Shown: positions 2,501 to 39,266, counted from the stretch's first letter. The stretch is DNA of 64,000 nt from Pseudoalteromonas luteoviolacea (GCF_001750165.1 NZ_CP015412.1:1143588-1207587); one strand, 5' to 3'. Notes: generated by a model from the letters alone, not told the origin. Numbers and translations are program-made.

Positions 2501-3226
2501 TTAGCGCAGGTTAAGCGCAATGAGTTGTTGCTCGATTTTTTTGAGCGACGCGTTATTCAGCGGTTGCTTCCATGGGTAACTATTAAGTAGACGCACTGAA
2601 CTTCTGATAATTGGGTGGTTAAGTGGTAATGGTGCAAGCAATGAATCAGTTCCTTCTATGATTTGTTTTGTTTGTTGTACACGCTGCACTTGCTCGTAGC
2701 CGACAGTAAGCGCCCAGCCACTGATAATGATCTCTTCTATAACCTCAGCCAAGTTTGGCACAGCTTCGAGCTCGCCTGCATTAATACCTTCGGCGAGTGC
2801 TACTTTAAAAGATGATTCGCATCTAGACTGCGCTTCAATGATTTTACTGGTCCAGTAATTAGACCCTTTTTTAATAACAGCTTCATTGGTGGCATAGGTT
2901 TGTAATGCGTAATCAAACTCGAATAGTTGAAGTTTTTCAGGTGAGATTAGGCTAATAGCGATGATTTTTTCAGGCGCAGTGAGTTCAAGGGTCAGCACTT
3001 GGTTAAATACATTGGAGAGGTGAATAAAAGACTCGTTGGCAAGGGCCAATACGATATCTTCTTTACTTTGTACGAATTTATAGACAGACCCCATCGAAAG
3101 TCCGGCAATACGCGCAATTTTTGCCATGGTGAAGTCAGTAATTGATGATTCGTTGATACATTGCTCGGCGGCTGAAAGGATCATCTTTTGCTGAGTTTGT
3201 TGGTCATATTTTGGCGCTGGTGCCAT
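2501..3226 (-). CDS. TetR/AcrR family transcriptional regulator
   Basis: 241 aa. N-terminal HTH with the TetR signature (FTMAKIARIAGLSMGSVYKF). Sits immediately upstream of the MFP-RND genes on the same strand. Confidence 0.85.
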   Translation of the reverse strand: MAPAPKYDQQTQQKMILSAAEQCINESSITDFTMAKIARIAGLSMGSVYKFVQSKEDIVLALANESFIHLSNVFNQVLTLELTAPEKIIAISLISPEKLQLFEFDYALQTYATNEAVIKKGSNYWTSKIIEAQSRCESSFKVALAEGINAGELEAVPNLAEVIEEIIISGWALTVGYEQVQRVQQTKQIIEGTDSLLAPLPLNHPIIRSSVRLLNSYPWKQPLNNASLKKIEQQLIALNLR

Positions 3227-3260
3227 ACAAGTACCTCTAGATTAGCAGTTTTGATTTTTA

Positions 3261-3277
3261 TTCGAATGACATTCGAA
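3261..3277. promoter_or_regulatory. 17-bp perfect palindrome TTCGAATG-A-CATTCGAA, candidate TetR operator
   Basis: 8-bp inverted arms with a 1-bp spacer, 35 bp upstream of the TetR start codon in an otherwise AT-rich promoter region. Confidence 0.45.
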
Positions 3278-3449
3278 TGTGGTTATTCTATGCTTATAAT
3301 CTACTTTGTCAATCTAGGTTTTTATAAATATTTTTATCTAACTGTTTTACTGGGAATAAAAAATCATAATTTTAAGCTATGTACTTGATGATCTTTTTGA
3401 GAACGTTTAGTTTGAGGATGGTTTTTATGAAATAAAGGAGAAATGCAAA

Positions 3450-3593
3450 ATGAACTTGAAGAAAAAAAACCTCAAACAGCTAAGTGAAGATACGCACTTA
3501 AACCTTAAGCTAGCCGACTTGGTTGCTGGTGGTGCTAAGCCGCCAATTCGGCTGATGTGTACGACAACTTTAGATACAGAAATGAAGCGTTAA
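3450..3593 (+). CDS. small ORF (47 aa) with double-glycine-type leader motif; candidate secreted peptide/RiPP-like precursor
   Basis: AAGGAG Shine-Dalgarno at 3435-3440, 9 nt before the ATG. Translation is MNLKKKNLKQLSEDTHLNLKLADLVAGG|AKPPIRLMCTTTLDTEMKR. The LSxD..L..L..LV.GG pattern resembles GG-leader peptides and leaves a 19-aa Cys/Thr-containing core. Below the length cutoff of the ORF track. Confidence 0.3.
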   Translation: MNLKKKNLKQLSEDTHLNLKLADLVAGGAKPPIRLMCTTTLDTEMKR

Positions 3594-3855
3594 TTGATGC
3601 TTTAAGTGCGGTATAAAATCGCCTTTATCAGACGGTTATGTCAGATAACGTTATTCCAAAGCATGCTTTTGAGCAAGTAACTTGGCTAAGTATGCTTTTA
3701 AGGCCTAACCGCTTTTTATCATCCTCTTCACCCAACAACATAATTCATACGTATTTGCCAGCCGTGCCTGGTGCCTTGAGCGACTTTATCACTACTTTGA
3801 TTAAATATTTCAAACTGCCAATCGTATTAATAACAAAGAACAAAAGAGTTTAGGT

Positions 3856-4650
3856 ATGGCTGTAGGTAATTATCGAAAAACACAGGTCTTAAAAAGCGAA
3901 TATTTAACACCAAATATGAAGCGCATTGTTGTAACAGGAGCGGATTTAGCCAGTTTTCCAGAGGGGTTTGAAGCTGGATATGTAAAATTACTTTTTACTA
4001 AACAAGGCAGAGTGTTACGCGAAGATGAAGCCTTTGCGCAATTGGCAAATAACAACATCATGATGCGAACTTATACAGTACGCGCATTTGATAAGCAGGC
4101 TCAGCAATTGACGATAGACTTTGCACTGCATGAAAAAGAAGGCGCAATTGCACCTGCCTCTGACTGGGCTAAGGCGGCTCAGTTTGGTGATGAGATTATT
4201 GTTGGCGGGCCCGGTAAAACAATAGGTGTTGATCACAGTGCTGACTGGTTTTTATTGGTAGGAGATATGACCGCTCTGCCAGCCATCAGCTGTTATTTAG
4301 AGGACTTACCTGAGTGTGCTCATGGGTATGCGGTTATTGAAGTGACAAGCCCAGAAGATATTCAAGATTTAAATAAGCCCAGTGGCATTGAGGTTATCTG
4401 GCAGGTTAATACCACACCAGGTAAAAATAGTTCGTTGTTCGATGCCGTTAAAGACATTGACTGGCAGCAAGGTGGTGTATATGTGTGGTGTGCATGTGAA
4501 TTCGACATGATGAAGACCCTTCGCCGTTGGTTTAAAAAGGAAAAAGGGCTTGAAAAAGAGCAAATGTACGTCAGCAGCTACTGGAAATTAGATTGCACTG
4601 AAGAAGAACATAAAGCCGAAAAATTATCTGATTCAAACCTGCCAAATTGA
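3856..4650 (+). CDS. siderophore-interacting protein (SIP/ViuB-like FAD-binding ferric-siderophore reductase)
   Basis: 264 aa. N-terminal FAD-binding_9-like region (TPNMKRIVVTG...GYVKLLF) followed by a SIP-type NAD-binding domain. Confidence 0.7.
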   Translation: MAVGNYRKTQVLKSEYLTPNMKRIVVTGADLASFPEGFEAGYVKLLFTKQGRVLREDEAFAQLANNNIMMRTYTVRAFDKQAQQLTIDFALHEKEGAIAPASDWAKAAQFGDEIIVGGPGKTIGVDHSADWFLLVGDMTALPAISCYLEDLPECAHGYAVIEVTSPEDIQDLNKPSGIEVIWQVNTTPGKNSSLFDAVKDIDWQQGGVYVWCACEFDMMKTLRRWFKKEKGLEKEQMYVSSYWKLDCTEEEHKAEKLSDSNLPN

Positions 4651-30950: not shown

Positions 30951-33050
30951 ATGGAATTTTTAGATAATCTCGGACCAATTTTAACAATCGTTGGCGTGGT
31001 CATCGCCGTTATTTTTGCGATTATTTTAATCGTGGGGAAGTTTTATCGAAAAGTGGATCAAGGGCATGCGCTCATTATTAACAAAATGAAAAATGAGCCA
31101 GATGTCACAACTACGGGGGGCATTGTTTACCCTGTTATTCATAAAATGGAGGTGATGGATATCTCAACCAAACGCATGGTATTGGAGCGCAGAGAGAACA
31201 GCGGCTTGATCTGTAAAGATAACATCCGTGCAGATATTGCAATTACCTTTTATATTCGCGTTAATGAAAACAAGCAGGACATTTTACGTGTTGCCAAGCA
31301 AGTTGGCTGTGCACGCGCTTCTCAACCTGAGACTCTACAAGAGCTGTTTGAAGCTAAGTTTTCCGAAGCACTGAAAACAGTGGGTAAGCAAATGAACTTT
31401 GAGGAGTTGTTTACCCATCGTAACCAGTTTAGAGATGCGATTAAAGAGGTGATTGGTCAGGATCTATCTGGTTATACATTGGAAGATGTTGCGATTGATT
31501 ATCTAGAGCAAACCTCCATTCACAAACTTGATGAAAACAACATTTTGGATTCTGAAGGGATCCGTCGCATTACCGAAAAAACAGCGGAACAAAACGTTCA
31601 AACCAATCAACTGAAGTGTGATGAGCAAGCGCAAATTGAGATCCAAAACCAAGCGGCGTTAGAGAAGTCGTTGGAAATCGAGCGTCAAAAAGAAGATGCT
31701 AAAGCAAAGCAGCAGCGCGAGATTGAAACGGTCCGTGCAAGGGAGACGGCTGAAGCGGAACGTGTAAAGCAAGAAGAACGTTTGAAGTCAGAAGATGCAC
31801 GCTTAAAAGCAGATGAAGCAATTGAGATTGCCGAGCAAAACAAACAGCGTGAAATTGACATTGCTGAACAAAATCGCCTTCGTGTACTGGCCATTGAAGA
31901 AGAAAAAGTGGCGCGTTCTCGTGAAATCGAAGTTATTGAGCGTGAGAAAGAAACGGAAATCATGCGCATTAACAAAGAAAAAGCGCTTGAAGTGGAGCGT
32001 AAAGAAATTGCTGAAGTGTTACGTGACAGAGTAGCCGTTGAGAAAACGGTTGCAGAAGAACAAGAGCGTATTAAAGATGTGCAAACATTGGCAGCTGCAG
32101 AGCGGGAAAAAGAAGCAATTGTGATTAAAGCCAAAGCAGAAGCAGAAGAAGCACTGGTGAAAGATATTGAAGCAGCTAAAGCGCAAGAGCAAGCGTCAGA
32201 GTTCAAGGCGAGAGAGCTTGAAAAAATGGCTGAAGCTGAGCTGCGTATCGCAAATCAAACGGCTGAGTCGAAAAAAGTGTTGGCGGAAGCAGAGCGCGCA
32301 GAAAAAGCGGCAGCTGGTTTAGCTGAAGCCGAAGTTACTAAAGCGAAAGCAGAAGCAAACGCGCAGCAAGGTGAAACGGAAGCACAAGTATTGCAACAAA
32401 AACTGGCGGCAGAAGCACAAGGTAAACGTGACATCGGTTTTGCAGATGCTGAAGTGCAATCGGCAATGGCTGAGGCAATTGAGAAACAAGGTGAAGCGGA
32501 AGCTCAGACACTTGAACGTCGTATGTCAGCAGAAGCAAAAGGCCTTGAAGAGAAGCTACAAGCGTTAAATGCGATGGATCAGTCGGCGCGCGATTATGAA
32601 AGCTTTACGTTGCAGCTTAACCAGCAAAAAGAGTTAATGCTTGCTAAATTAGAAGCTGAAAAAGACATTGCAGCGCATCAATCTGAAGTGCTTAGTAAAA
32701 CACTGGGTAGTGCAGACATCAACATCATGGGTGGTGATGGTCAGTTCTTTAATCAGTTTATGAAGGCTATCACACTCGGTAAGTCAATTGATGGCTTAGT
32801 GGGTGAGAGTGATACAGTACAAACCTTATTTAAAGATCATTTAAATGGGGAAAGAAATATCATGGATGACCTAAAAGGTGTTTTAAGTGGTGCGAATGCG
32901 TCATCAGAGACGATGAAAAATGTGGCAATGAGTAAGTTTTTTAGTCAGTTAGGAAATAGCAGCGATGCTGAAAAGCAGCAGCTTTTAGCGCTACTTGGTA
33001 GTACGCTAAACGGCAATTCGAAGCAAGTTGAGTCAAACGAGCAGAGCTAA
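30951..33050 (+). CDS. flotillin family protein (SPFH/band-7 domain; YqiK/FloT-like)
   Basis: 699 aa. N-terminal TM anchor. SPFH domain (residues ~40-250). Very long E/A/K-rich coiled-coil flotillin region. C-terminal tail. Confidence 0.85.
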   Translation: MEFLDNLGPILTIVGVVIAVIFAIILIVGKFYRKVDQGHALIINKMKNEPDVTTTGGIVYPVIHKMEVMDISTKRMVLERRENSGLICKDNIRADIAITFYIRVNENKQDILRVAKQVGCARASQPETLQELFEAKFSEALKTVGKQMNFEELFTHRNQFRDAIKEVIGQDLSGYTLEDVAIDYLEQTSIHKLDENNILDSEGIRRITEKTAEQNVQTNQLKCDEQAQIEIQNQAALEKSLEIERQKEDAKAKQQREIETVRARETAEAERVKQEERLKSEDARLKADEAIEIAEQNKQREIDIAEQNRLRVLAIEEEKVARSREIEVIEREKETEIMRINKEKALEVERKEIAEVLRDRVAVEKTVAEEQERIKDVQTLAAAEREKEAIVIKAKAEAEEALVKDIEAAKAQEQASEFKARELEKMAEAELRIANQTAESKKVLAEAERAEKAAAGLAEAEVTKAKAEANAQQGETEAQVLQQKLAAEAQGKRDIGFADAEVQSAMAEAIEKQGEAEAQTLERRMSAEAKGLEEKLQALNAMDQSARDYESFTLQLNQQKELMLAKLEAEKDIAAHQSEVLSKTLGSADINIMGGDGQFFNQFMKAITLGKSIDGLVGESDTVQTLFKDHLNGERNIMDDLKGVLSGANASSETMKNVAMSKFFSQLGNSSDAEKQQLLALLGSTLNGNSKQVESNEQS

Positions 33051-33071
33051 GCATCGTTTGAAATGATGAAC

Positions 33072-33095
33072 AGAGCATGCGTTCTAGCATGCTCT
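33072..33095 (+). other. intra-operon RNA hairpin (9-bp stem agagcatgc/gcatgctct, 6-nt loop) between flotillin and giant ATPase genes
   Basis: Perfect inverted repeat read directly in the 87-bp gap, with no strong T-tract. Candidate attenuator or processing site. Confidence 0.35.
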
Positions 33096-33137
33096 CACCT
33101 TTCTAATTACCCTCCTTGTACAACAGGACAGTAGACT

Positions 33138-36100
33138 ATGACGGACTCTGCAAATAATGCCGCACTAGAACAGGGCTCTTATGATTTAATCAAGCGCCGT
33201 TTGAGTAACTCGGGTGCCCAATTGCGCACAGACATTGATTTACTCAACCAAAACCGTATAGATACCTTTGGCAGCACTGAAATCAAAGTAAAAGGGCGTG
33301 CTAGAGTAAGAACAGAACACAATTGTATACCACGAGATATCGTGCTCATTGGTGATAAACTCATCTTTGCTTACAACGTATTTTTAGGATTGAAAAAGAA
33401 TACTCAAGTAGGTGATGTGTTCAGTGTTCAAAAGCTAGTTCAGCAAGATGATCACTATGAGGTAGAAGCATATCCAAGTGAAACAAAGTTTCTCACAGAC
33501 AATCGATTTTTGAGAGATTTTGACGAGTTATATACCTATTACAAAGAAACCCGCTTACAGCATTTATTTCAGCAAAATGGCAAGCTTTACGCGCTATTTC
33601 AAATCGGTGACAAGCTCACCGATGTACGAGTCTTTCGTTGGGAGATAGCAGCAGATAACACCCTTGATTACATAGATAATCGCGGCGAACGGGATTTAAA
33701 TACGGGTCAGGACTATGACTTTGAATGGATAAAAACCGATAGAAGTAATCATGTAGAAGGTCGTCATCCGCATATTAATATTCTTGATACCGTGTTTGTT
33801 GAGACGGTTGGTGGCGATCTAACCATTAAAATCGAGAATAATACTGAAAGTGGTGAAGGGATCTATGCGGAGCCAGTTGAAGATAAAAACCAATCCCTCG
33901 CTGATTGTGATGTAGATTATGCGAAGCTTGGCGAAATCATCTTACTTAAAGTGCTACCTTATCGCGAAAAGGTTTGGCGCTATTATATTTTCAATTGTGT
34001 GACCGAAAAGGTCATCCGCCAAGATGCTATTTCAGATGCATGTGTACAACTTCCTGATGACCACGGCATAATTTTCCCAGGTGGTTACTATTTACAATCA
34101 GGGCAGACTCGTTCGTTTGAAGACCACATTGAAAACTTAGAATTTCATAAGCAGATAAAATCTCCTAATGGTGAGGATGTTTTATATGTTTTTTATGAGC
34201 CAAGCGAAGGGCGCTACGCATTATTTGCCTATAATCTGATCGAGAAAAACCTTCAAAACCCAATCTATTGTCATGGTTATGGTGTCTATGAAGATGGTTT
34301 AACCATCACCTTCAAGGCTGAAAAGGAAGAAGCTGAGCGCGTTCATCCAATTCAGATCTGGGATAGCCCATTTTGCTCTGTTGAGTTTGCTGCCAATGCG
34401 CCTACACCAAGCAGTATGCTGGGTAAGATTGGGAATCCAGATTTGGTGCGAGGTATTTCAGATCTATACAGTGTTTGCAAGGCTATCAGTGAGCAAAATC
34501 CCAATGTGTCTCACTATGAAAGTTTGATCTCGTTAACACGCAGTATCTTAGACAGATATCACTGGCTAACAGAGCCTGACTTTACACCTCTCAATACTCA
34601 ATTACATGAGATATTTGAAACCTCTGAGCAGGTTTTGGATGAGTTTGAGAAAGTCAGCCAAATACAAGAGACAGCCAAAAAAGCACTGGCTGATATTGAG
34701 CAAGAATATAAGGCGACCACTAAGGATATTCGCCCTGATAGCTTTAAACTGGCCACTGAATTTGTCACAGGCCTTGAAGCGCTTAAGCTGCTTAAAGGCA
34801 AAATTATTAGCTTGGAAGAGGTAAAATATATAGATGTTACCGCTTTGCAAGCGCTGCAAATACGCCTTGATGAGCTGACTTTAGAGTTGAGTAAAGCGAC
34901 GGCGCAATTTTTACAAAAAGAGGCTGCTTTAGCGCCTTATCATGACAAACTCGGTGAGCTCACCGGCTTGAGCGAGAAAAGTGAGAGTGTCACTGAGCTC
35001 AATGGATTTTTAGATGCGTTAGATACTCTGGGCGATGAGCTTGATTTACTCAATCATACCATGCTTGATTTAGAAATCGATGATAGTCGTGTTAGAACAC
35101 AGATCCTAGAGGATGTCAGTGGTGTTTATGGCTTGGTTAATCGAGCCAAAGCCAGTATTGAGATCCGCCGAAAAAGTCTTGGTAGTGTAGAGGCAAAAGC
35201 GGAATTTGCAGCGCGTTTTAAACTGTTTAGTCAAAGTATTACCAGCAGTTTGAACAACGCGCGTACGCCGGAGCAATGTGATGAGCAGCTCTCTCGCTTG
35301 TTAATTCAATTAGAAGAGCTGGAGTCTCAGTTTAGTGAATATGACGAGTATCTTGCTGAGATCATGGCCAAGCGCGATGATGTCTATGAAAGCTTTGAAG
35401 CACATAAGCAGCAGCTGATAGATGAAAGGCAGCGCAGAGCACTAAACTTAGCCAATGCCGCTGAGCGTATTTTGCAAGGGGTAACTAGACGCTCACAAAA
35501 CTTCACTGATATTGATGAAATAAACAGCTATTTTGCTTCTGATCCTATGATCAGCAAGTTACGCAGTTTGACGCAAGAGCTTAAAGATCTGGGTGATGAG
35601 ATTAAAGCGGATGATATTCAAGCTAAGCTAAAAGCGTCTAAAGATCAAGGGATCCGCTCTCTACGTGATAAGCAAGATATATACAGTGATGGTGGTAACT
35701 CGGTCAAAATTGGCAAGCACAATTTTGGAGTCAATAAGCAGCAACTAGACTTGACTTTATTGCCTCGTGATGAAGATTTGATGTTTCATCTTACTGGTAC
35801 TGAGTATTTTGAGCCTATAGGGGATAAGCGTATTCGCGAAACTTTGCTGGCTTATCGCCCATATTGGCAGCAGAACTTAGTCTCTGAAAATAACGACATA
35901 TATCGTGGTGAGTTTCTAGCCGCGCAAGTGCTGACAGCGGCGACAGATCCGACTCACGCACTGACGCTTGATGGGTTAAATGCTGCGATAGCTGATGATT
36001 CACTGCTCACGTTAGTGCAGAAATTTGCAGAGCCTAGATATCAAGAGGGTTATGAAAAGGGCATTCATGACCATGATGCAACCTTGATCTTGCAAAACTT

Positions 36101-39100
36101 GCTGGCACAAAAACAGGCGTTAGGATTATTGATATACCCTACATCAGCGCGTGTGGTAGCGCAGCTGTATGCAAGTCAATGTGATGACAAGCAATTAATC
36201 AAGTGGCGCGAGCAGTCTAAGCAGGCTGAGTTGATGGAGACCTTGTTAGGTGATGCGCGATTTAAAGTGCAGCTAGCCACTGAACTTGGCGAGGTGATCA
36301 CACAGTTTGCACAAACTGATCTAAACCGTTACCTGGGTTACACATCGGCCTTATCTGGACAGTTAAGTGCTGAATATTTAATCAAAGAGTTGGCGCACAG
36401 CAAAAAAGACCTTGTTTTTTCGACCTCCCATACGGTTAAAAAATTAGCCGAGCAATTTAACAGTGTTGCCAGAAGTAAAGGGTTTGCAGGTTCACTGCAA
36501 GATACGTTGCAGGCATTGGAACATATGCAAGATCAAGCCATTATGGCAACTAGCTGGCTTAACGCATATGGACAACAGCATGATACAGAAGTCAGTAGCG
36601 ATGATTTGATCGAGGCGGCTAATATGGTGCTATTACAGCATCTAAAAACGGCTAAGTTCAACGCGCAAGATGTGGCCGTCACTAATCAAGTTAATGGGCT
36701 GTTAGGTCAACATATTCGTATTGATGAGCAAGTATTAACGCTTGATTACTCGGAGTTTTTTGCGCGTACAGAGCTGTATTTGGCTGAACATGTACGTGGG
36801 TTTAGTCACTATCATGAAATTAAGTCTGATATTTTGGTAGAGCAAAAGGAGCGTTTACAGCTCGATGAATTCAAGCCAAGGCCATTGAGTTCATTTGTCC
36901 GTAACCAATTGATTGATAAAGTTTACTTCCCAATCATTGGTGACAACCTTGCGAAGCAAATTGGTGCGTCAGGTAATAACAAGCGTACCGATTTAATGGG
37001 GATGTTGTTACTTATTTCTCCACCGGGTTACGGTAAAACGACGCTGATTGAATATGTTGCCAATCGACTTGGTTTAACGTTTGTAAAAGTGAATTGCCCA
37101 TCAATAGGCCATGATCAGGTTTCACTCGACCCAGGCCAAGCGATCAATGCAACGGCCGCAAAAGAGATTGAAAAAATTAATCAGAGCTTTGAAATGGGCA
37201 ATAACGTCATGCTCTATTTGGATGATATTCAGCATACCAACCCTGAATTCTTACAAAAATTCATTTCACTTTGTGACGGCTCTAGGCGTATTGATGGCGT
37301 ATGGAATGGTCGCAGTAAAACCTATGACCTACGTGGTAAAAAGTTTGCAGTTGTGATGGCGGGTAATCCTTACACTGAATCTGGCGAGAGCTTTAAAATT
37401 CCAGATATGTTGGCTAACCGTGCCGATATCTACAATTTAGGTGACACTTTATCGGGTTGTGAGCAAGAGTTTGCAATGAGCTTCATTGAAAATGCACTCA
37501 CCTCAAACGCAGTGCTTGCGCCACTTGCCAACCGTAACATGCAGGATTTGTATAAATTAGTGCGTATTTCTGAAGGCGAAGACATCTCTCTAAACGAGCT
37601 GGAGCATAACTATTCGCAGGCGCAAGCAAATGAAATTGTATCTGTGTTACAAAAGCTTATTCAGATAAGAAATACCGTATTGAAGGTGAATGCCCAGTAT
37701 ATTGCCTCCGCAGCGCAAGACGATGATTATCGTATTGAGCCACCGTTTAAGCTGCAGGGCAGTTATCGAAACATGAATAAGATGGCTGAAAAAGTGGTGG
37801 CGGCAATGAATGATGAGGAATTAGAAAACCTTATTCAAGATCATTACCGCGGTGAGGCGCAAACGCTCAGCAAAGGCAGTGAGGAGAACCTCCTTAAACT
37901 CGCTGAGCTACGTGGTACGTTGGACGAGCAGGCAAGAGCACGTTGGCAGCAGATTTTAGATGATTACGCGCTACTTAACCGAGCCAATGATGCAGGCAGT
38001 CCAATACTACTTGCTGTCGAGCAACTTGGTGAACTGAATGAGTCACTCACCAGTATTGCAACAAAGTTGGATAAAGAGCAATTAAGCCATAATTACTCAG
38101 CCTTGTTTGAATCTCTGAATCAAGTGGTCAGTGCGCAAGACGCCAATGACAGCATACAGTCGGTAGCAAAAGTGATTGAACAAACTGCGCAGCAGTCGTC
38201 GCTTACGGCATCATTTGAGCAGCTTATAGGGCTTTTGGCTGAGCAGCATCAGCAAAGGCAGACACACAGTGAACATTTAGCGCATCAAGGCGTGAATACG
38301 ACTGAGACGCTGGTGGACAAGGTGAATGAAACATTGGCACAACTTACTGGCGCTTTAAATACTCAGTCAGAGCGTTATTCAGAGCAAGCACAGCTCGATG
38401 CGCAAAGAGCGGATAATAGACTTGCTTCACAGCAAGCTTTAACAGCGGCATTGTCTGAGCAGTTACAACAAGTCTCGGGTGCAATTGAGAGTCAGCGCGA
38501 CAGTCAGATTAGTAGTGCAGAGCAAAGTGCTTTAAAACATAGTGAAGGCATGGCAAGGCACGGCGCAGAACTTGCGAAGTTAGCTGATGAATTAACAAAA
38601 TTGCGAAGTACATTGAGTGCTCAAAACACGCTCAAAGAATCGCAGGTAGAGCAATCTAAAGGGCATCAGCAGGCTTTAGTAGAGTGTGTTTCCAGCAAAT
38701 TGGAGCATATGGCTAAGGTGTTGGAGGCGCAAAACTCAGTTGCACATCACTCGCGTCAGTCCGAGCTGTTAGCGCAACAAAGTGAAGCGTTAAAGGTGAT
38801 GGCTAAAAAGACTGATATCGGTGACGCTTTATCTGGGCTCAGCCGCGACTTTTTAAAAAGCCAAGATGTGCTAGGTCTCAAGTTAAAAGAGGTACTTGAG
38901 TCTAGTCAGCACCAAACGGCAGAACAACTTTCAAGTGTTTCAGGAGAGTTGCAAGAGCATCATGATGAACTGACTACACAGGTACAAGTGCATAGCTCTG
39001 TGTTGGAGCAACTAGTTGCTCAGCTGCGAGAGCAGGTGGCGAGTGCACAGCAAGCGACACCGAGTGATGAAGTGGCACTTGCATTGAGTGAGTTGGTCAA

Positions 39101-39266
39101 CACTGCGTTACCTTCGCTGGTGCAACAGGCAGAGCAATCAAGCACCCTAGACCCTGAGATTGGTCGCAAAGTGGATGTGATTTTAGAGCGCCTAGCACGT
39201 ATTGAGCGACAGCCTGCACCGAGTCAAGGTTCAAGTCAAAATAGCGATAACCCTTATATGCTTTAG
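33138..39266 (+). CDS. giant (2042 aa) coiled-coil protein with a single embedded MoxR/AAA_5-type AAA+ ATPase module
   Basis: Walker A ISPPGYGKTT (nt 37017-37043). Walker B LYLDDIQH (nt 37212-37235). MoxR/AAA_5-like sensor segment VVMAGNPYTESGESFKIPDMLANRADIYNL. Beta-rich N-terminal ~420 aa. About 850 aa of helical/coiled-coil region before the ATPase. Q/A/L/S-rich low-complexity coiled coil over the last ~500 aa. Confidence 0.7.
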   Translation: MTDSANNAALEQGSYDLIKRRLSNSGAQLRTDIDLLNQNRIDTFGSTEIKVKGRARVRTEHNCIPRDIVLIGDKLIFAYNVFLGLKKNTQVGDVFSVQKLVQQDDHYEVEAYPSETKFLTDNRFLRDFDELYTYYKETRLQHLFQQNGKLYALFQIGDKLTDVRVFRWEIAADNTLDYIDNRGERDLNTGQDYDFEWIKTDRSNHVEGRHPHINILDTVFVETVGGDLTIKIENNTESGEGIYAEPVEDKNQSLADCDVDYAKLGEIILLKVLPYREKVWRYYIFNCVTEKVIRQDAISDACVQLPDDHGIIFPGGYYLQSGQTRSFEDHIENLEFHKQIKSPNGEDVLYVFYEPSEGRYALFAYNLIEKNLQNPIYCHGYGVYEDGLTITFKAEKEEAERVHPIQIWDSPFCSVEFAANAPTPSSMLGKIGNPDLVRGISDLYSVCKAISEQNPNVSHYESLISLTRSILDRYHWLTEPDFTPLNTQLHEIFETSEQVLDEFEKVSQIQETAKKALADIEQEYKATTKDIRPDSFKLATEFVTGLEALKLLKGKIISLEEVKYIDVTALQALQIRLDELTLELSKATAQFLQKEAALAPYHDKLGELTGLSEKSESVTELNGFLDALDTLGDELDLLNHTMLDLEIDDSRVRTQILEDVSGVYGLVNRAKASIEIRRKSLGSVEAKAEFAARFKLFSQSITSSLNNARTPEQCDEQLSRLLIQLEELESQFSEYDEYLAEIMAKRDDVYESFEAHKQQLIDERQRRALNLANAAERILQGVTRRSQNFTDIDEINSYFASDPMISKLRSLTQELKDLGDEIKADDIQAKLKASKDQGIRSLRDKQDIYSDGGNSVKIGKHNFGVNKQQLDLTLLPRDEDLMFHLTGTEYFEPIGDKRIRETLLAYRPYWQQNLVSENNDIYRGEFLAAQVLTAATDPTHALTLDGLNAAIADDSLLTLVQKFAEPRYQEGYEKGIHDHDATLILQNLLAQKQALGLLIYPTSARVVAQLYASQCDDKQLIKWREQSKQAELMETLLGDARFKVQLATELGEVITQFAQTDLNRYLGYTSALSGQLSAEYLIKELAHSKKDLVFSTSHTVKKLAEQFNSVARSKGFAGSLQDTLQALEHMQDQAIMATSWLNAYGQQHDTEVSSDDLIEAANMVLLQHLKTAKFNAQDVAVTNQVNGLLGQHIRIDEQVLTLDYSEFFARTELYLAEHVRGFSHYHEIKSDILVEQKERLQLDEFKPRPLSSFVRNQLIDKVYFPIIGDNLAKQIGASGNNKRTDLMGMLLLISPPGYGKTTLIEYVANRLGLTFVKVNCPSIGHDQVSLDPGQAINATAAKEIEKINQSFEMGNNVMLYLDDIQHTNPEFLQKFISLCDGSRRIDGVWNGRSKTYDLRGKKFAVVMAGNPYTESGESFKIPDMLANRADIYNLGDTLSGCEQEFAMSFIENALTSNAVLAPLANRNMQDLYKLVRISEGEDISLNELEHNYSQAQANEIVSVLQKLIQIRNTVLKVNAQYIASAAQDDDYRIEPPFKLQGSYRNMNKMAEKVVAAMNDEELENLIQDHYRGEAQTLSKGSEENLLKLAELRGTLDEQARARWQQILDDYALLNRANDAGSPILLAVEQLGELNESLTSIATKLDKEQLSHNYSALFESLNQVVSAQDANDSIQSVAKVIEQTAQQSSLTASFEQLIGLLAEQHQQRQTHSEHLAHQGVNTTETLVDKVNETLAQLTGALNTQSERYSEQAQLDAQRADNRLASQQALTAALSEQLQQVSGAIESQRDSQISSAEQSALKHSEGMARHGAELAKLADELTKLRSTLSAQNTLKESQVEQSKGHQQALVECVSSKLEHMAKVLEAQNSVAHHSRQSELLAQQSEALKVMAKKTDIGDALSGLSRDFLKSQDVLGLKLKEVLESSQHQTAEQLSSVSGELQEHHDELTTQVQVHSSVLEQLVAQLREQVASAQQATPSDEVALALSELVNTALPSLVQQAEQSSTLDPEIGRKVDVILERLARIERQPAPSQGSSQNSDNPYML

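What the first reader, a model, noticed from the sequence alone, without database searches (positions are those of the whole stretch)
3450..3593. Unannotated 47-aa ORF with strong Shine-Dalgarno and a double-glycine leader-like motif next to the TetR-RND locus
A textbook AAGGAG sits 9 nt upstream of ATG 3450.

The product MNLKKKNLKQLSEDTHLNLKLADLVAGG-AKPPIRLMCTTTLDTEMKR has an N-terminal segment (LSED..L.L.LADLVAGG) resembling the GG-leader of class II bacteriocins, ComC-type pheromones and NHLP/Nif11 RiPP precursors. That leaves a 19-aa core with one Cys and four Thr.

No peptidase-domain ABC exporter (PCAT) or RiPP modification enzyme is in the window. If real, the processing and export genes are elsewhere. 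Alternatively the peptide is a signal for the adjacent TetR-controlled efflux pump.
Basis: seen in the sequence. Interest (0 to 1): 0.5.

Follow-up and report, generated by a model that had tools for sequence, protein, structure and literature searches.

The report
Orphan lanthipeptide-type precursor peptide gene
The 47-codon ORF is a real, conserved small gene of Pseudoalteromonas luteoviolacea: a stand-alone, shortened member of a family of leader-plus-core peptides that elsewhere sits beside lanthipeptide-making enzymes. It is an ordinary kind of gene, in an uncurated family and an unusual truncated form.

Summary
The organism is Pseudoalteromonas luteoviolacea, and NCBI already lists the identical peptide as "hypothetical protein".

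- **Real gene.** It is intact, with the same length and stop codon, in six species-level genomes. pN/pS is 0.29 in frame against about 1.0 in the other two frames.
- **Leader family.** The 28-aa leader ending in GG belongs to a family with no Pfam or NCBIfam model (consensus MKLKLNKKKLKNLSKDNKALPxxMTPQVAGG). I found about 40 members in Pseudoalteromonas, Thalassomonas and marine metagenomes, with hypervariable Cys/Thr-rich cores.
- **Link to lanthipeptides.** One member lies between LanC–LanB genes and a bacteriocin-exporter-type ABC gene. Across the family, 112 of 116 core Cys have a Ser/Thr within 8 residues upstream (0 of 2000 shuffles reach this). The other ~18 loci with enough flank to judge are orphans with no partner genes nearby.
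- **Odd core here.** In sister lineages the same slot holds a 68–75-aa, six-Cys version. The window's 19-aa core is truncated, and its single Cys has no upstream Ser/Thr donor.
- **No link to the pump.** The TetR–RND module is conserved in genera that lack the peptide.

Whether this peptide is expressed, modified or exported was not tested.

The parts
3384..3434 (+). Conserved upstream block. It holds a weak sigma-70-like candidate: TTGATG at 3385-3390, a 17-nt spacer, and TAGTTT at 3408-3413. This is a putative promoter of the small gene.
   Evidence: The block is nearly invariant in six genomes. The hexamers were read by eye and fall below the threshold of the consensus scan, so the promoter assignment is inference only.
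3435..3440 (+). Shine-Dalgarno sequence AAGGAG, 9 nt upstream of the ATG.
   Evidence: invariant in six genomes. Nearly every family member examined has AAGGA, TAAGGA or AAAGG 6-9 nt before its start codon.
3450..3593 (+). 47-codon gene including the stop codon: an orphan lanthipeptide-type (LanA-like) precursor.
   Evidence: It is intact with the same stop in six genomes, with pN/pS 0.29 in frame against 1.04 and 0.94 in the other frames. Substitution events are 13 synonymous and 17 non-synonymous, binomial P 0.01-0.08.
3450..3533 (+). Leader peptide, 28 aa: MNLKKKNLKQLSEDTHLNLKLADLVAGG. The predicted cleavage site is after Gly28.
   Evidence: A leader HMM built only from Thalassomonas and metagenome members finds this as the sole significant hit among 1822 six-frame segments of the window. 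The hit has E=1.4e-4 and aligns end to end up to the GG. The leader has the same length and syntenic position as in the long-core orthologues.
3534..3590 (+). Core peptide, 19 aa: AKPPIRLMCTTTLDTEMKR (1 Cys, 4 Thr).
   Evidence: Codons for Cys37, Thr38-40 and Thr43 vary only synonymously across six genomes. The Cys aligns with the first Cys of the long cores, CTTT against CTAT, at the same distance from the GG. No Ser/Thr lies N-terminal to the Cys.
3656..3703 (+). Conserved hairpin: CCAAAGCATGC, a loop, then GTATGCTTTTAAGG. It ends in a T-run, with a second T-run at 3713-3717. This is a putative, weak intrinsic terminator that separates the small gene from the SIP gene.
   Evidence: The pairs are kept in all six genomes, and two helix pairs show a compensatory change in one genome. 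The stem is AT-rich and the loop is long, so the terminator scan did not report it. The function is inferred.

Best explanation
The ORF is a genuine small protein-coding gene. It encodes an orphan, core-truncated member of a precursor-peptide family that has a conserved ~28-31-aa basic leader ending in Gly-Gly. The family occurs in marine Alteromonadales (Pseudoalteromonas, Thalassomonas) and in seawater metagenomes, and it fits the class I lanthipeptide (LanA) pattern.

**Proposed mechanism**
- The 47-aa prepeptide is translated from its own small transcription unit.
- Its leader is recognised in trans by a LanB dehydratase and LanC cyclase encoded elsewhere in the genome, which dehydrate Thr in the core.
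- A peptidase-domain ABC exporter cuts after Gly28 and exports the 19-mer.
- The single Cys has no Ser/Thr on its N-terminal side. The product therefore cannot carry a canonical N-to-C (methyl)lanthionine ring. It would be linear and dehydrated, or carry a reversed Cys9-to-Dhb10-12/15 ring.

**Shown**
- The ORF exists, is conserved and is under purifying selection.
- The leader is homologous to the family.
- One family member is adjacent to LanB, LanC and an ABC exporter gene.
- The family's cores carry a lanthipeptide-like Ser/Thr-before-Cys signature.
- The syntenic orthologues have long cores.

**Inferred**
- Expression, recognition in trans, dehydration, cleavage at GG, export, and any activity.
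For: **Coding**
- The gene is intact in six GTDB species-level genomes, with no indels inside the ORF and indels just downstream of it.
- pN/pS is 0.29 in frame against ~1.0 in the other frames.
- Synonymous changes are in excess, and the Cys/Thr codons change only synonymously.
- Syntenic long-core orthologues have pN/pS 0.11-0.14 at pS ~0.55-0.63.

**Family**
- An iterated search gave 32 proteins sharing the leader MKLKLNKKKLKNLSKDNKALPxxMTPQV[AG]GG with unrelated cores.
- Further members turned up in fetched loci.
- The non-circular HMM test gives E=1.4e-4.

**Link to lanthipeptides**
- In L046 the member at 3051-3248 lies between LanC (PF05147, 3e-37) plus LanB-N (PF04738, 1e-81) and an ABC nucleotide-binding domain.
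- That domain is best matched by NHLP/HlyB-type bacteriocin exporters.
- In 32 non-redundant cores, 112 of 116 Cys have a Ser/Thr within 8 residues upstream (shuffles 85.6 +/- 5.0; 0 of 2000 reach it). 106 of 116 have one within 5 residues.
- Sixteen of 40 cores have an odd number of Cys, which argues against a purely disulfide design.

**Literature**
- Class I lanthipeptides with double-glycine leaders are known from Thalassomonas and Pseudoalteromonas (PMC9680876, PMC11270710, PMC11433236).
- A P. viridis class I cluster carries peptidase_C39 and an ABC transporter (PMC11015633).
- All 13 P. luteoviolacea strains studied carry a 'lantipeptide' cluster (PMC5069768).
Against: - Only 1 of about 19 distinct family loci with enough flank to judge has LanBC beside it (three further contigs of ~2 kb are too short). 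The link to lanthipeptide enzymes therefore rests on one 4-kb metagenome contig plus the Ser/Thr-Cys statistics.
- I could not obtain the published TlnA, VdsA or PsfA leader sequences to compare directly.
- I could not scan this strain's genome for LanB, LanC or a C39 exporter.
- The window core is one of only 4 exceptions to the Ser/Thr-before-Cys rule. It is far shorter than its syntenic orthologues, so it may be a decaying remnant.
- The selection signal is modest (P 0.01-0.08; six related sequences).
- No curated lanthipeptide-leader model matches. The best is NF038158 at E=0.38, and for another family member.
- The leader has Pro at -6 and -11 in most members and lacks hydrophobic residues at -7 and -15. 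It is not a textbook substrate for a peptidase-domain exporter.
Confidence: 0.55

Rival explanations
1. It is a relic: an intact but functionally dead remnant of the long six-Cys precursor that occupied this slot. The remnant lost most of its core and the downstream lipoprotein gene. It persists only because the lineage is young and the upstream DNA is constrained by the TetR promoter.
For: - Sister lineages have a 68-75-aa orthologue plus a 229-248-aa lipoprotein gene in the same slot. One lineage (L012) has a frameshifted copy. Others have replaced the gene altogether.
- The core lacks a ring donor upstream of its Cys.
- Nucleotide diversity in the ORF (0.078) is about the same as in the upstream intergenic DNA (0.074).
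Against: - The same start, stop and length are kept in six species-level genomes.
- pN/pS is 0.29 against ~1 in the other frames.
- Five of five changes in the Cys and Thr codons are synonymous.
- The Shine-Dalgarno sequence is invariant, and indels occur only outside the ORF.
Confidence: 0.25
2. It is an unmodified GG-leader peptide, a class II microcin, bacteriocin or pheromone type. A peptidase-domain ABC transporter exports and cleaves it to a linear cationic 19-mer, with no lanthionine chemistry.
For: - The GG site and a hydrophobic residue at -4 and -12 are conserved across the family.
- The core cannot form a canonical ring.
- One Thalassomonas family member sits beside DsbA, DsbD and thioredoxin genes, which hints that some members may be disulfide peptides.
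Against: - No hit to curated class II bacteriocin or ComC leader models.
- There is no adjacent immunity, exporter or two-component sensor gene.
- The family-wide Ser/Thr-before-Cys pattern and the frequent odd Cys counts point to thioether chemistry rather than disulfide or linear designs.
- The Thr codons are specifically preserved.
Confidence: 0.13
3. It is a regulatory element rather than a peptide product. It could be a leader ORF or signal tied to the divergent TetR-RND operon or to the downstream siderophore-interacting reductase gene. Alternatively it is not translated at all.
For: - It sits in the 629-bp region between TetR and SIP.
- A conserved hairpin followed by T-runs lies between it and SIP.
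Against: - TetR-adaptor-RND is conserved without the peptide in other Pseudoalteromonas, Alteromonas and Thalassotalea. SIP is absent from those loci.
- Homologous peptides occur in about 20 unrelated genomic contexts.
- Selection is specific to the reading frame.
- No Rfam family matches.
Confidence: 0.05

Closest known systems
Class I lanthipeptide precursors of marine Gammaproteobacteria: viridisins VdsA1-3 (Thalassomonas viridans), thalassomonasins TlnA1/2 (T. actiniarum), pseudorosins (P. flavipulchra), PciA (P. citrea)
   Same: - The genera are the same.
- The leader is short, ~29 aa, and ends in a double glycine.
- The cores are variable and rich in Cys, Ser and Thr.
- There are multiple precursors per genome.
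- Modification is by separate LanB and LanC enzymes (PMC9680876, PMC11433236, PMC11270710).
- One member of the present family lies beside LanC-LanB and an ABC exporter gene.
   Different: - The published precursors lie inside their gene clusters. The window gene and nearly all family members found here are orphans far from any LanBC.
- The window core is only 19 aa, with one Cys that has no upstream Ser/Thr.
- I could not compare sequences directly, because the published leaders are only in figures that are not held.
Prochlorosins (ProcA precursors with a single ProcM enzyme; class II lanthipeptides of Prochlorococcus and Synechococcus)
   Same: It works alike in outline (from my own knowledge): a strongly conserved leader ending in GG, hypervariable cores, and many precursor genes scattered around the genome away from the single modifying enzyme.
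   Different: - Prochlorosins use a ~60-80-aa Nif11-type leader and a fused LanM enzyme.
- Here the leader is 28-31 aa and unrelated to Nif11 or NHLP models.
- The associated enzymes seen here are split LanB and LanC.
Double-glycine leader peptides cut by peptidase-domain (C39) ABC exporters: class II bacteriocins, class II microcins and ComC pheromones
   Same: - G-G or G-A at -2/-1 and a hydrophobic residue at -4 and -12.
- No Sec-type hydrophobic signal region.
- An exporter gene of the bacteriocin/HlyB type lies beside one member.
   Different: - The leader is longer and very basic at its N-terminus (MKLKLNKKKLKNL).
- It has Pro at -6 and -11 in most members and lacks hydrophobic residues at -7 and -15.
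- There is no match to curated models.
- No exporter, immunity or sensor gene is nearby.
Mersacidin ring A (Cys1-Abu2)
   Same: It is a precedent for a (methyl)lanthionine in which the Cys lies N-terminal to, and next to, the dehydrated Thr. PMC9680876 mentions such neighbouring-residue rings. The window core has C-T-T-T.
   Different: Mersacidin is a class II product of a Gram-positive bacterium. No such ring has been shown for this family. This is a lead recalled from knowledge, not a test.

Membership tests
Class I lanthipeptide precursor (LanA) | Leader homologous to leaders of precursors encoded beside LanB and LanC | tested here: met
   A leader HMM built without any P. luteoviolacea sequence, and including the LanBC-adjacent L046 peptide, hits the window ORF with E=1.4e-4. 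It is the sole significant hit among 1822 segments. The L046 context is shown. This rests on a single LanBC-adjacent example.
Class I lanthipeptide precursor (LanA) | LanB dehydratase and LanC cyclase genes in the same locus | tested here: not met
   Neither domain was found among the 37 window ORFs scanned, which include every ORF of 284 aa or more that was not nested inside a larger ORF.
Class I lanthipeptide precursor (LanA) | LanB, LanC and a leader protease or exporter somewhere in the same genome | not testable with these tools
The literature reports a lantipeptide cluster in all 13 P. luteoviolacea strains studied (PMC5069768). It also reports a class I cluster with peptidase_C39 in P. 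viridis (PMC11015633).
Class I lanthipeptide precursor (LanA) | Core contains both Cys and Ser/Thr | tested here: met
   The core has 1 Cys and 4 Thr. Their codons change only synonymously in six genomes.
Class I lanthipeptide precursor (LanA) | Each Cys has a Ser/Thr donor a few residues N-terminal to it (canonical ring direction) | tested here: not met
   The window core scores 0 of 1. The family as a whole scores 112 of 116, against 85.6 +/- 5.0 in shuffles.
Class I lanthipeptide precursor (LanA) | Dehydration and thioether rings shown chemically | not testable with these tools
   This needs co-expression and mass spectrometry.
Double-glycine leader substrate of a C39 peptidase ABC exporter | Gly-Gly, Gly-Ala or Gly-Ser at -2/-1 | tested here: met
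   GG is at residues 27-28. G[GA] is present at the equivalent position in every family member collected.
Double-glycine leader substrate of a C39 peptidase ABC exporter | Hydrophobic residues at -4, -7, -12 and -15 | tested here: inconclusive
   The sequence has Val at -4, Ala at -7, Leu at -12 and Asp at -15. Only -4 and -12 are conserved across the family.
Double-glycine leader substrate of a C39 peptidase ABC exporter | Match to curated GG-leader models in NCBIfam or Pfam (bacteriocin-type signal, ComC, class IIb, Bacteroidetes GG) | tested here: not met
   The window peptide and 13 other family members scanned gave no family at E<=1-10. The one exception is NF038158 at E=0.38 for P0016.
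Double-glycine leader substrate of a C39 peptidase ABC exporter | Cognate peptidase-domain ABC exporter | tested here: inconclusive
   There is none in the window. In L046 the adjacent ABC gene matches the NHLP and HlyB exporter families, but the contig end cuts off its N-terminal part, where a C39 domain would lie.
NHLP / Nif11 leader RiPP precursors | Match to the TIGR03793 or TIGR03798 leader domain, with a leader of ~60-80 aa | tested here: not met
   There is no NCBIfam hit, and the leader is 28 aa.
ComC-type competence or quorum pheromone | Adjacent ComAB-like exporter and ComDE-like two-component sensor | tested here: not met
   The neighbours are TetR, an RND adaptor, a SIP reductase and proteins of unknown function.

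The most novel reading that the evidence does not exclude
Pigmented Pseudoalteromonas and Thalassomonas may run a prochlorosin-like 'one enzyme set, many substrates' system built on class I (LanB/LanC) chemistry. In this reading, several precursor genes with one conserved leader and hypervariable cores are scattered around each genome and matured in trans. The window's short single-Cys peptide would then be a retained product with a non-canonical structure, either linear and dehydrated or carrying a reversed Cys-to-Dhb ring. It might act as a signal rather than an antibiotic.
Probability: 0.25. Interest if true: 0.65.

Novelty: new member of a known kind. Interest (0 to 1): 0.42.

Why it matters
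Databases call these small genes "hypothetical protein", and cluster-based genome-mining tools miss them because they lie far from any biosynthetic enzyme.

- **Hidden substrates.** Recognising the shared leader shows that marine Pseudoalteromonas and Thalassomonas carry several scattered lanthipeptide-type precursors per genome. The real substrate pool of their cryptic class I lanthipeptide clusters may therefore be larger than the two or three peptides inside each cluster.
- **Practical use.** The leader gives a simple handle, an HMM, for finding more cores to express with known LanBC pairs.
- **The window gene itself.** It is a minor, possibly degenerating member. Its value is mostly as the entry point to the family.
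- **A negative result.** The neighbouring efflux pump has nothing to do with it.

Tried and rejected
- **Curated models.** Pfam and NCBIfam scans of the peptide and 13 relatives found nothing usable. Rfam found nothing in the intergenic region.
- **Full HMMER search.** A search of 1.84 billion representatives with the two short-type sequences gave only P0002 and two tandem-repeat proteins, P0003 and P0004. Their scores come from six repeated chance matches, so I rejected them as artefacts.
- **Conserved partner gene.** I compared the neighbours of orphan members and found no shared gene. The ~440-aa neighbours in L031 and L032 are unrelated.
- **Plasmid collection.** I searched it for a family member and for the L046 LanC. 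The first search found nothing and the second found only Streptomyces hits.
- **Literature.** Searching for leader strings (KLKNLSK and similar) gave no paper. The published VdsA, TlnA and PciA sequences are only in figures or absent from the held supplements. One paper was not held.
- **Shared upstream operator.** I found none by eye among family members, only a good Shine-Dalgarno sequence.
- **TetR/RND coupling.** Rejected on phylogenetic distribution.
- **Shine-Dalgarno plus ATG as evidence.** The motif alone is not above chance.
- **Remnant of the long core downstream of the stop codon.** None was detectable in any of the three forward-strand frames downstream of the stop.

Full report
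**Observation.** The ORF at 3450..3593 (+) translates to MNLKKKNLKQLSEDTHLNLKLADLVAGGAKPPIRLMCTTTLDTEMKR. AAGGAG lies at 3435-3440, 9 nt before the ATG. It sits in a 629-bp gap between a divergent TetR gene (2501-3226, -) and a siderophore-interacting FAD reductase gene (3856-4650, +). The TetR gene is followed by an RND adaptor gene (1370-2482, -). The identical peptide is already in NCBI/UniRef as a hypothetical protein of Pseudoalteromonas luteoviolacea, and an 87% variant exists. So it is unrecognised rather than unannotated. AAGGAG-N5-10-ATG occurs 5 times in the window against 3.25 expected. The translation signal alone therefore proves nothing.

**Is it a gene?** I fetched 29 loci through the TetR orthologue, one genome per GTDB species, plus one locus through the 87% variant.
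- Five further loci (four GTDB species representatives plus L001, fetched through the 87% variant) have the ORF at the same place, with the same length and stop codon.
- There are no indels inside the ORF, while indels start just downstream of it.
- Summed pairwise pN/pS is 0.29 in frame, against 1.04 and 0.94 in the two other frames. Variable columns by codon position number 7, 7 and 16.
- Counted as events, 13 of 30 changes are synonymous where 23-30% is expected (binomial P 0.01-0.08, depending on transition bias).
- The codons for Cys37, Thr38, Thr39, Thr40 and Thr43 change only synonymously.
- The signal is modest because only six related sequences are available, but it is specific to the reading frame.

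**The same slot in sister lineages.** In four more distant P. luteoviolacea-group genomes (TetR ~81-83% identical), the syntenic gene encodes 68-75 aa.
- The leader has exactly the same length: MKLNKKHLKKLTHENALSKQQTPNIAGG.
- The core has five or six Cys, for example VGKFTYGGCTATAGDCAPNTYNDGTCPSHSPELTGCACPTTSPIICF.
- A lipoprotein-like gene follows it.
- These orthologues are under strong purifying selection. pN/pS is 0.11 in the leader and 0.14 in the C-terminal core at pS ~0.55-0.63, while the other frames give about 1-3.
- A GC-rich hairpin follows their stop codon.
- In L012 the gene is frameshifted. In L004 the slot holds an NRPS (C-A domains). In L006 and L007 it holds a GNAT and an AraC gene. 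In P. phenolica, Alteromonas and Thalassotalea, TetR-adaptor-RND is present without any such peptide and without SIP.
- The slot is therefore a variable region, and the peptide is not functionally tied to the pump.
- The window's Cys aligns with the first Cys of the long cores (CTTT against CTAT), eight residues after GG, and the DNA aligns there. The 19-aa core therefore looks like a truncated derivative. No remnant of the lost part is detectable after the stop codon.

**The wider family.**
- A search with the short type alone found nothing beyond the species, apart from two repeat-protein artefacts.
- Iterating with an alignment of the syntenic and paralogous forms gave 32 proteins. Fetched loci added more.
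- In all there are about 40 members, from P. luteoviolacea, P. rubra, P. umbrosa, other Pseudoalteromonas, three Thalassomonas species, and seawater metagenomes including Tara samples.
- They share the leader MKLKLNKKKLKNLSKDNKALPxxMTPQV[AG]G[GA], followed by unrelated cores of 15-59 aa.
- No Pfam or NCBIfam model covers them. The nearest is a class I lanthipeptide leader model, NF038158, at E=0.38 for one member.
- A leader HMM built only from Thalassomonas and metagenome members picks the window ORF as the single significant hit among 1822 six-frame segments of the window. The hit has E=1.4e-4 and aligns through to the GG.
- Nearly every member examined has a good Shine-Dalgarno sequence.

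**What the family is.** I examined the genomic context of about 20 loci.
- Nearly all are orphans. They occur singly, in tandem pairs, or a few kb apart, among unrelated housekeeping genes with no shared neighbour.
- The exception is L046, a 4.1-kb seawater contig. There the member at 3051-3248 lies between LanC (PF05147, 3e-37) with the N-terminal domain of LanB (PF04738, 1e-81) on one side and an ABC gene on the other.
- The visible C-terminal part of that ABC gene best matches NHLP and HlyB-type bacteriocin exporters.
- Independently, the cores carry a lanthipeptide-like signature. In 32 non-redundant cores, 112 of 116 Cys have a Ser/Thr within 8 residues upstream (shuffles 85.6 +/- 5.0; 0 of 2000 reach it).
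- 106 of 116 Cys have a Ser/Thr within 5 residues (shuffles 69.7 +/- 5.2).
- Sixteen of 40 cores have an odd number of Cys, which a disulfide design would not favour.
- The literature agrees on the setting. Class I lanthipeptides with double-glycine leaders and several precursors per cluster are known from T. viridans, T. actiniarum, P. flavipulchra and P. citrea (PMC9680876, PMC11270710, PMC11433236, PMC9993889).
- A P. viridis class I cluster includes peptidase_C39 and an ABC transporter (PMC11015633).
- A 'lantipeptide' cluster is reported in all 13 P. luteoviolacea strains examined (PMC5069768).
- I could not retrieve the published precursor sequences, so identity of the leader type with those peptides is inferred, not shown.

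**How the window gene most likely works.**
- It has its own conserved upstream block and Shine-Dalgarno sequence. A conserved hairpin with T-runs at 3656-3703 lies before the SIP promoter region.
- The 47-mer would be recognised through its leader by LanB and LanC encoded elsewhere. Its Thr residues would be dehydrated, and a peptidase-domain exporter would cut and export it after Gly28.
- None of this chemistry has been shown.
- The core is also atypical. It is one of only four exceptions to the Ser/Thr-before-Cys rule, so a canonical ring is impossible.
- The core would be linear, or would carry a reversed Cys9-to-Dhb ring of the kind known for adjacent residues in mersacidin (mentioned in PMC9680876).
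- The preserved C-T-T-T-x-D-T codons argue that the peptide still matters. The truncation, and the loss or decay of the gene in sister lineages, argue that it may be on its way out.
- I put the functional orphan precursor at about 0.55, an intact relic at 0.25, an unmodified GG-leader peptide at 0.13, and a cis-regulatory or non-coding role at 0.05.

**Verdict.** A GG-leader RiPP precursor with enzymes elsewhere fits, but the class is lanthipeptide-type rather than class II bacteriocin, ComC or NHLP, and the efflux-pump idea fails. This is a new, uncurated member of a known kind of system. The scattered-orphan organisation resembles prochlorosins but with class I enzymes. That is the most interesting reading left open, and it needs whole-genome scans and co-expression experiments to test.

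Noticed in passing
window 3260-3279: A direct repeat, ATTCGAATG-AC-ATTCGAATG, lies just upstream of the TetR start. Each copy contains the palindrome TTCGAA. The ATTCGAAT core of the first copy and the TTCGAATG core of the second are identical in all six related genomes, with the few differences falling between and beside them. It is probably the TetR operator.
   Followed up: partly
window 30951-39266: A 699-aa SPFH/Band-7 protein is followed directly by a 2042-aa protein with DUF3686 ('ATPase involved in DNA repair'), DUF7902 and AAA domains. This large two-gene module has unknown role and may be a defence system.
   Followed up: no
L001 10094-10240; L005 874-722: A second family member lies ~4 kb downstream of the first in two sister genomes: MKLKIQKNKLKNLSKDKKTLDVKRTAQVVGG-WFEPETDNCQSHPVFCN. 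It is absent from the window. P. rubra has longer six-Cys versions of the same type, P0010 and P0011, so this paralogue is also truncated in the window's clade.
   Followed up: partly
L012 2439-2144: This is a frameshifted pseudogene of the long-core peptide in P. luteoviolacea NCIMB 1942. The leader and the core are readable in two different frames.
   Followed up: yes
L004 2-2836; L006 1741-3519: The TetR-SIP slot holds quite different cargo in close relatives. L004 has an NRPS module (condensation plus adenylation domains). L006 and L007 have a GNAT acetyltransferase and an AraC regulator. This looks like a local hotspot for gene turnover.
   Followed up: partly
L043 7082-10189: The Thalassomonas viridans family member P0017 has a four-Cys core. 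It lies divergently beside genes for DsbA, DsbD-TM, a thioredoxin/AhpC-like protein and a sigma-70 region-4 protein. This is a hint that some members may be disulfide-bonded rather than, or as well as, thioether-bridged.
   Followed up: no
family cores (alignment A7): A motif recurs inside the otherwise hypervariable cores: Cys, 0-2 residues, [N/D]-T-[N/D/T], 2-4 residues, Cys. Examples are CQNTNDYWC, CDNTNGRIC, CGGNTDNFGC, CAPNTYNDGTC and CNDTDPNFC. The window core keeps only C-TTT-L-D. The meaning is unknown.
   Followed up: no
L055-L060: Family member P0019 occurs with an identical protein sequence on seven contigs from different marine metagenomes, including Tara Oceans samples. On the four contigs long enough to show it, it lies beside the same LysR, SnoaL and ABM genes. 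Its carrier is a widespread planktonic bacterium.
   Followed up: no
L037 148-1374: A stand-alone LanC-like gene (408 aa) lies 9 kb from family member P0021 on a 118-kb metagenome contig. No LanB is visible in the fetched stretch, so the relation is unclear.
   Followed up: no
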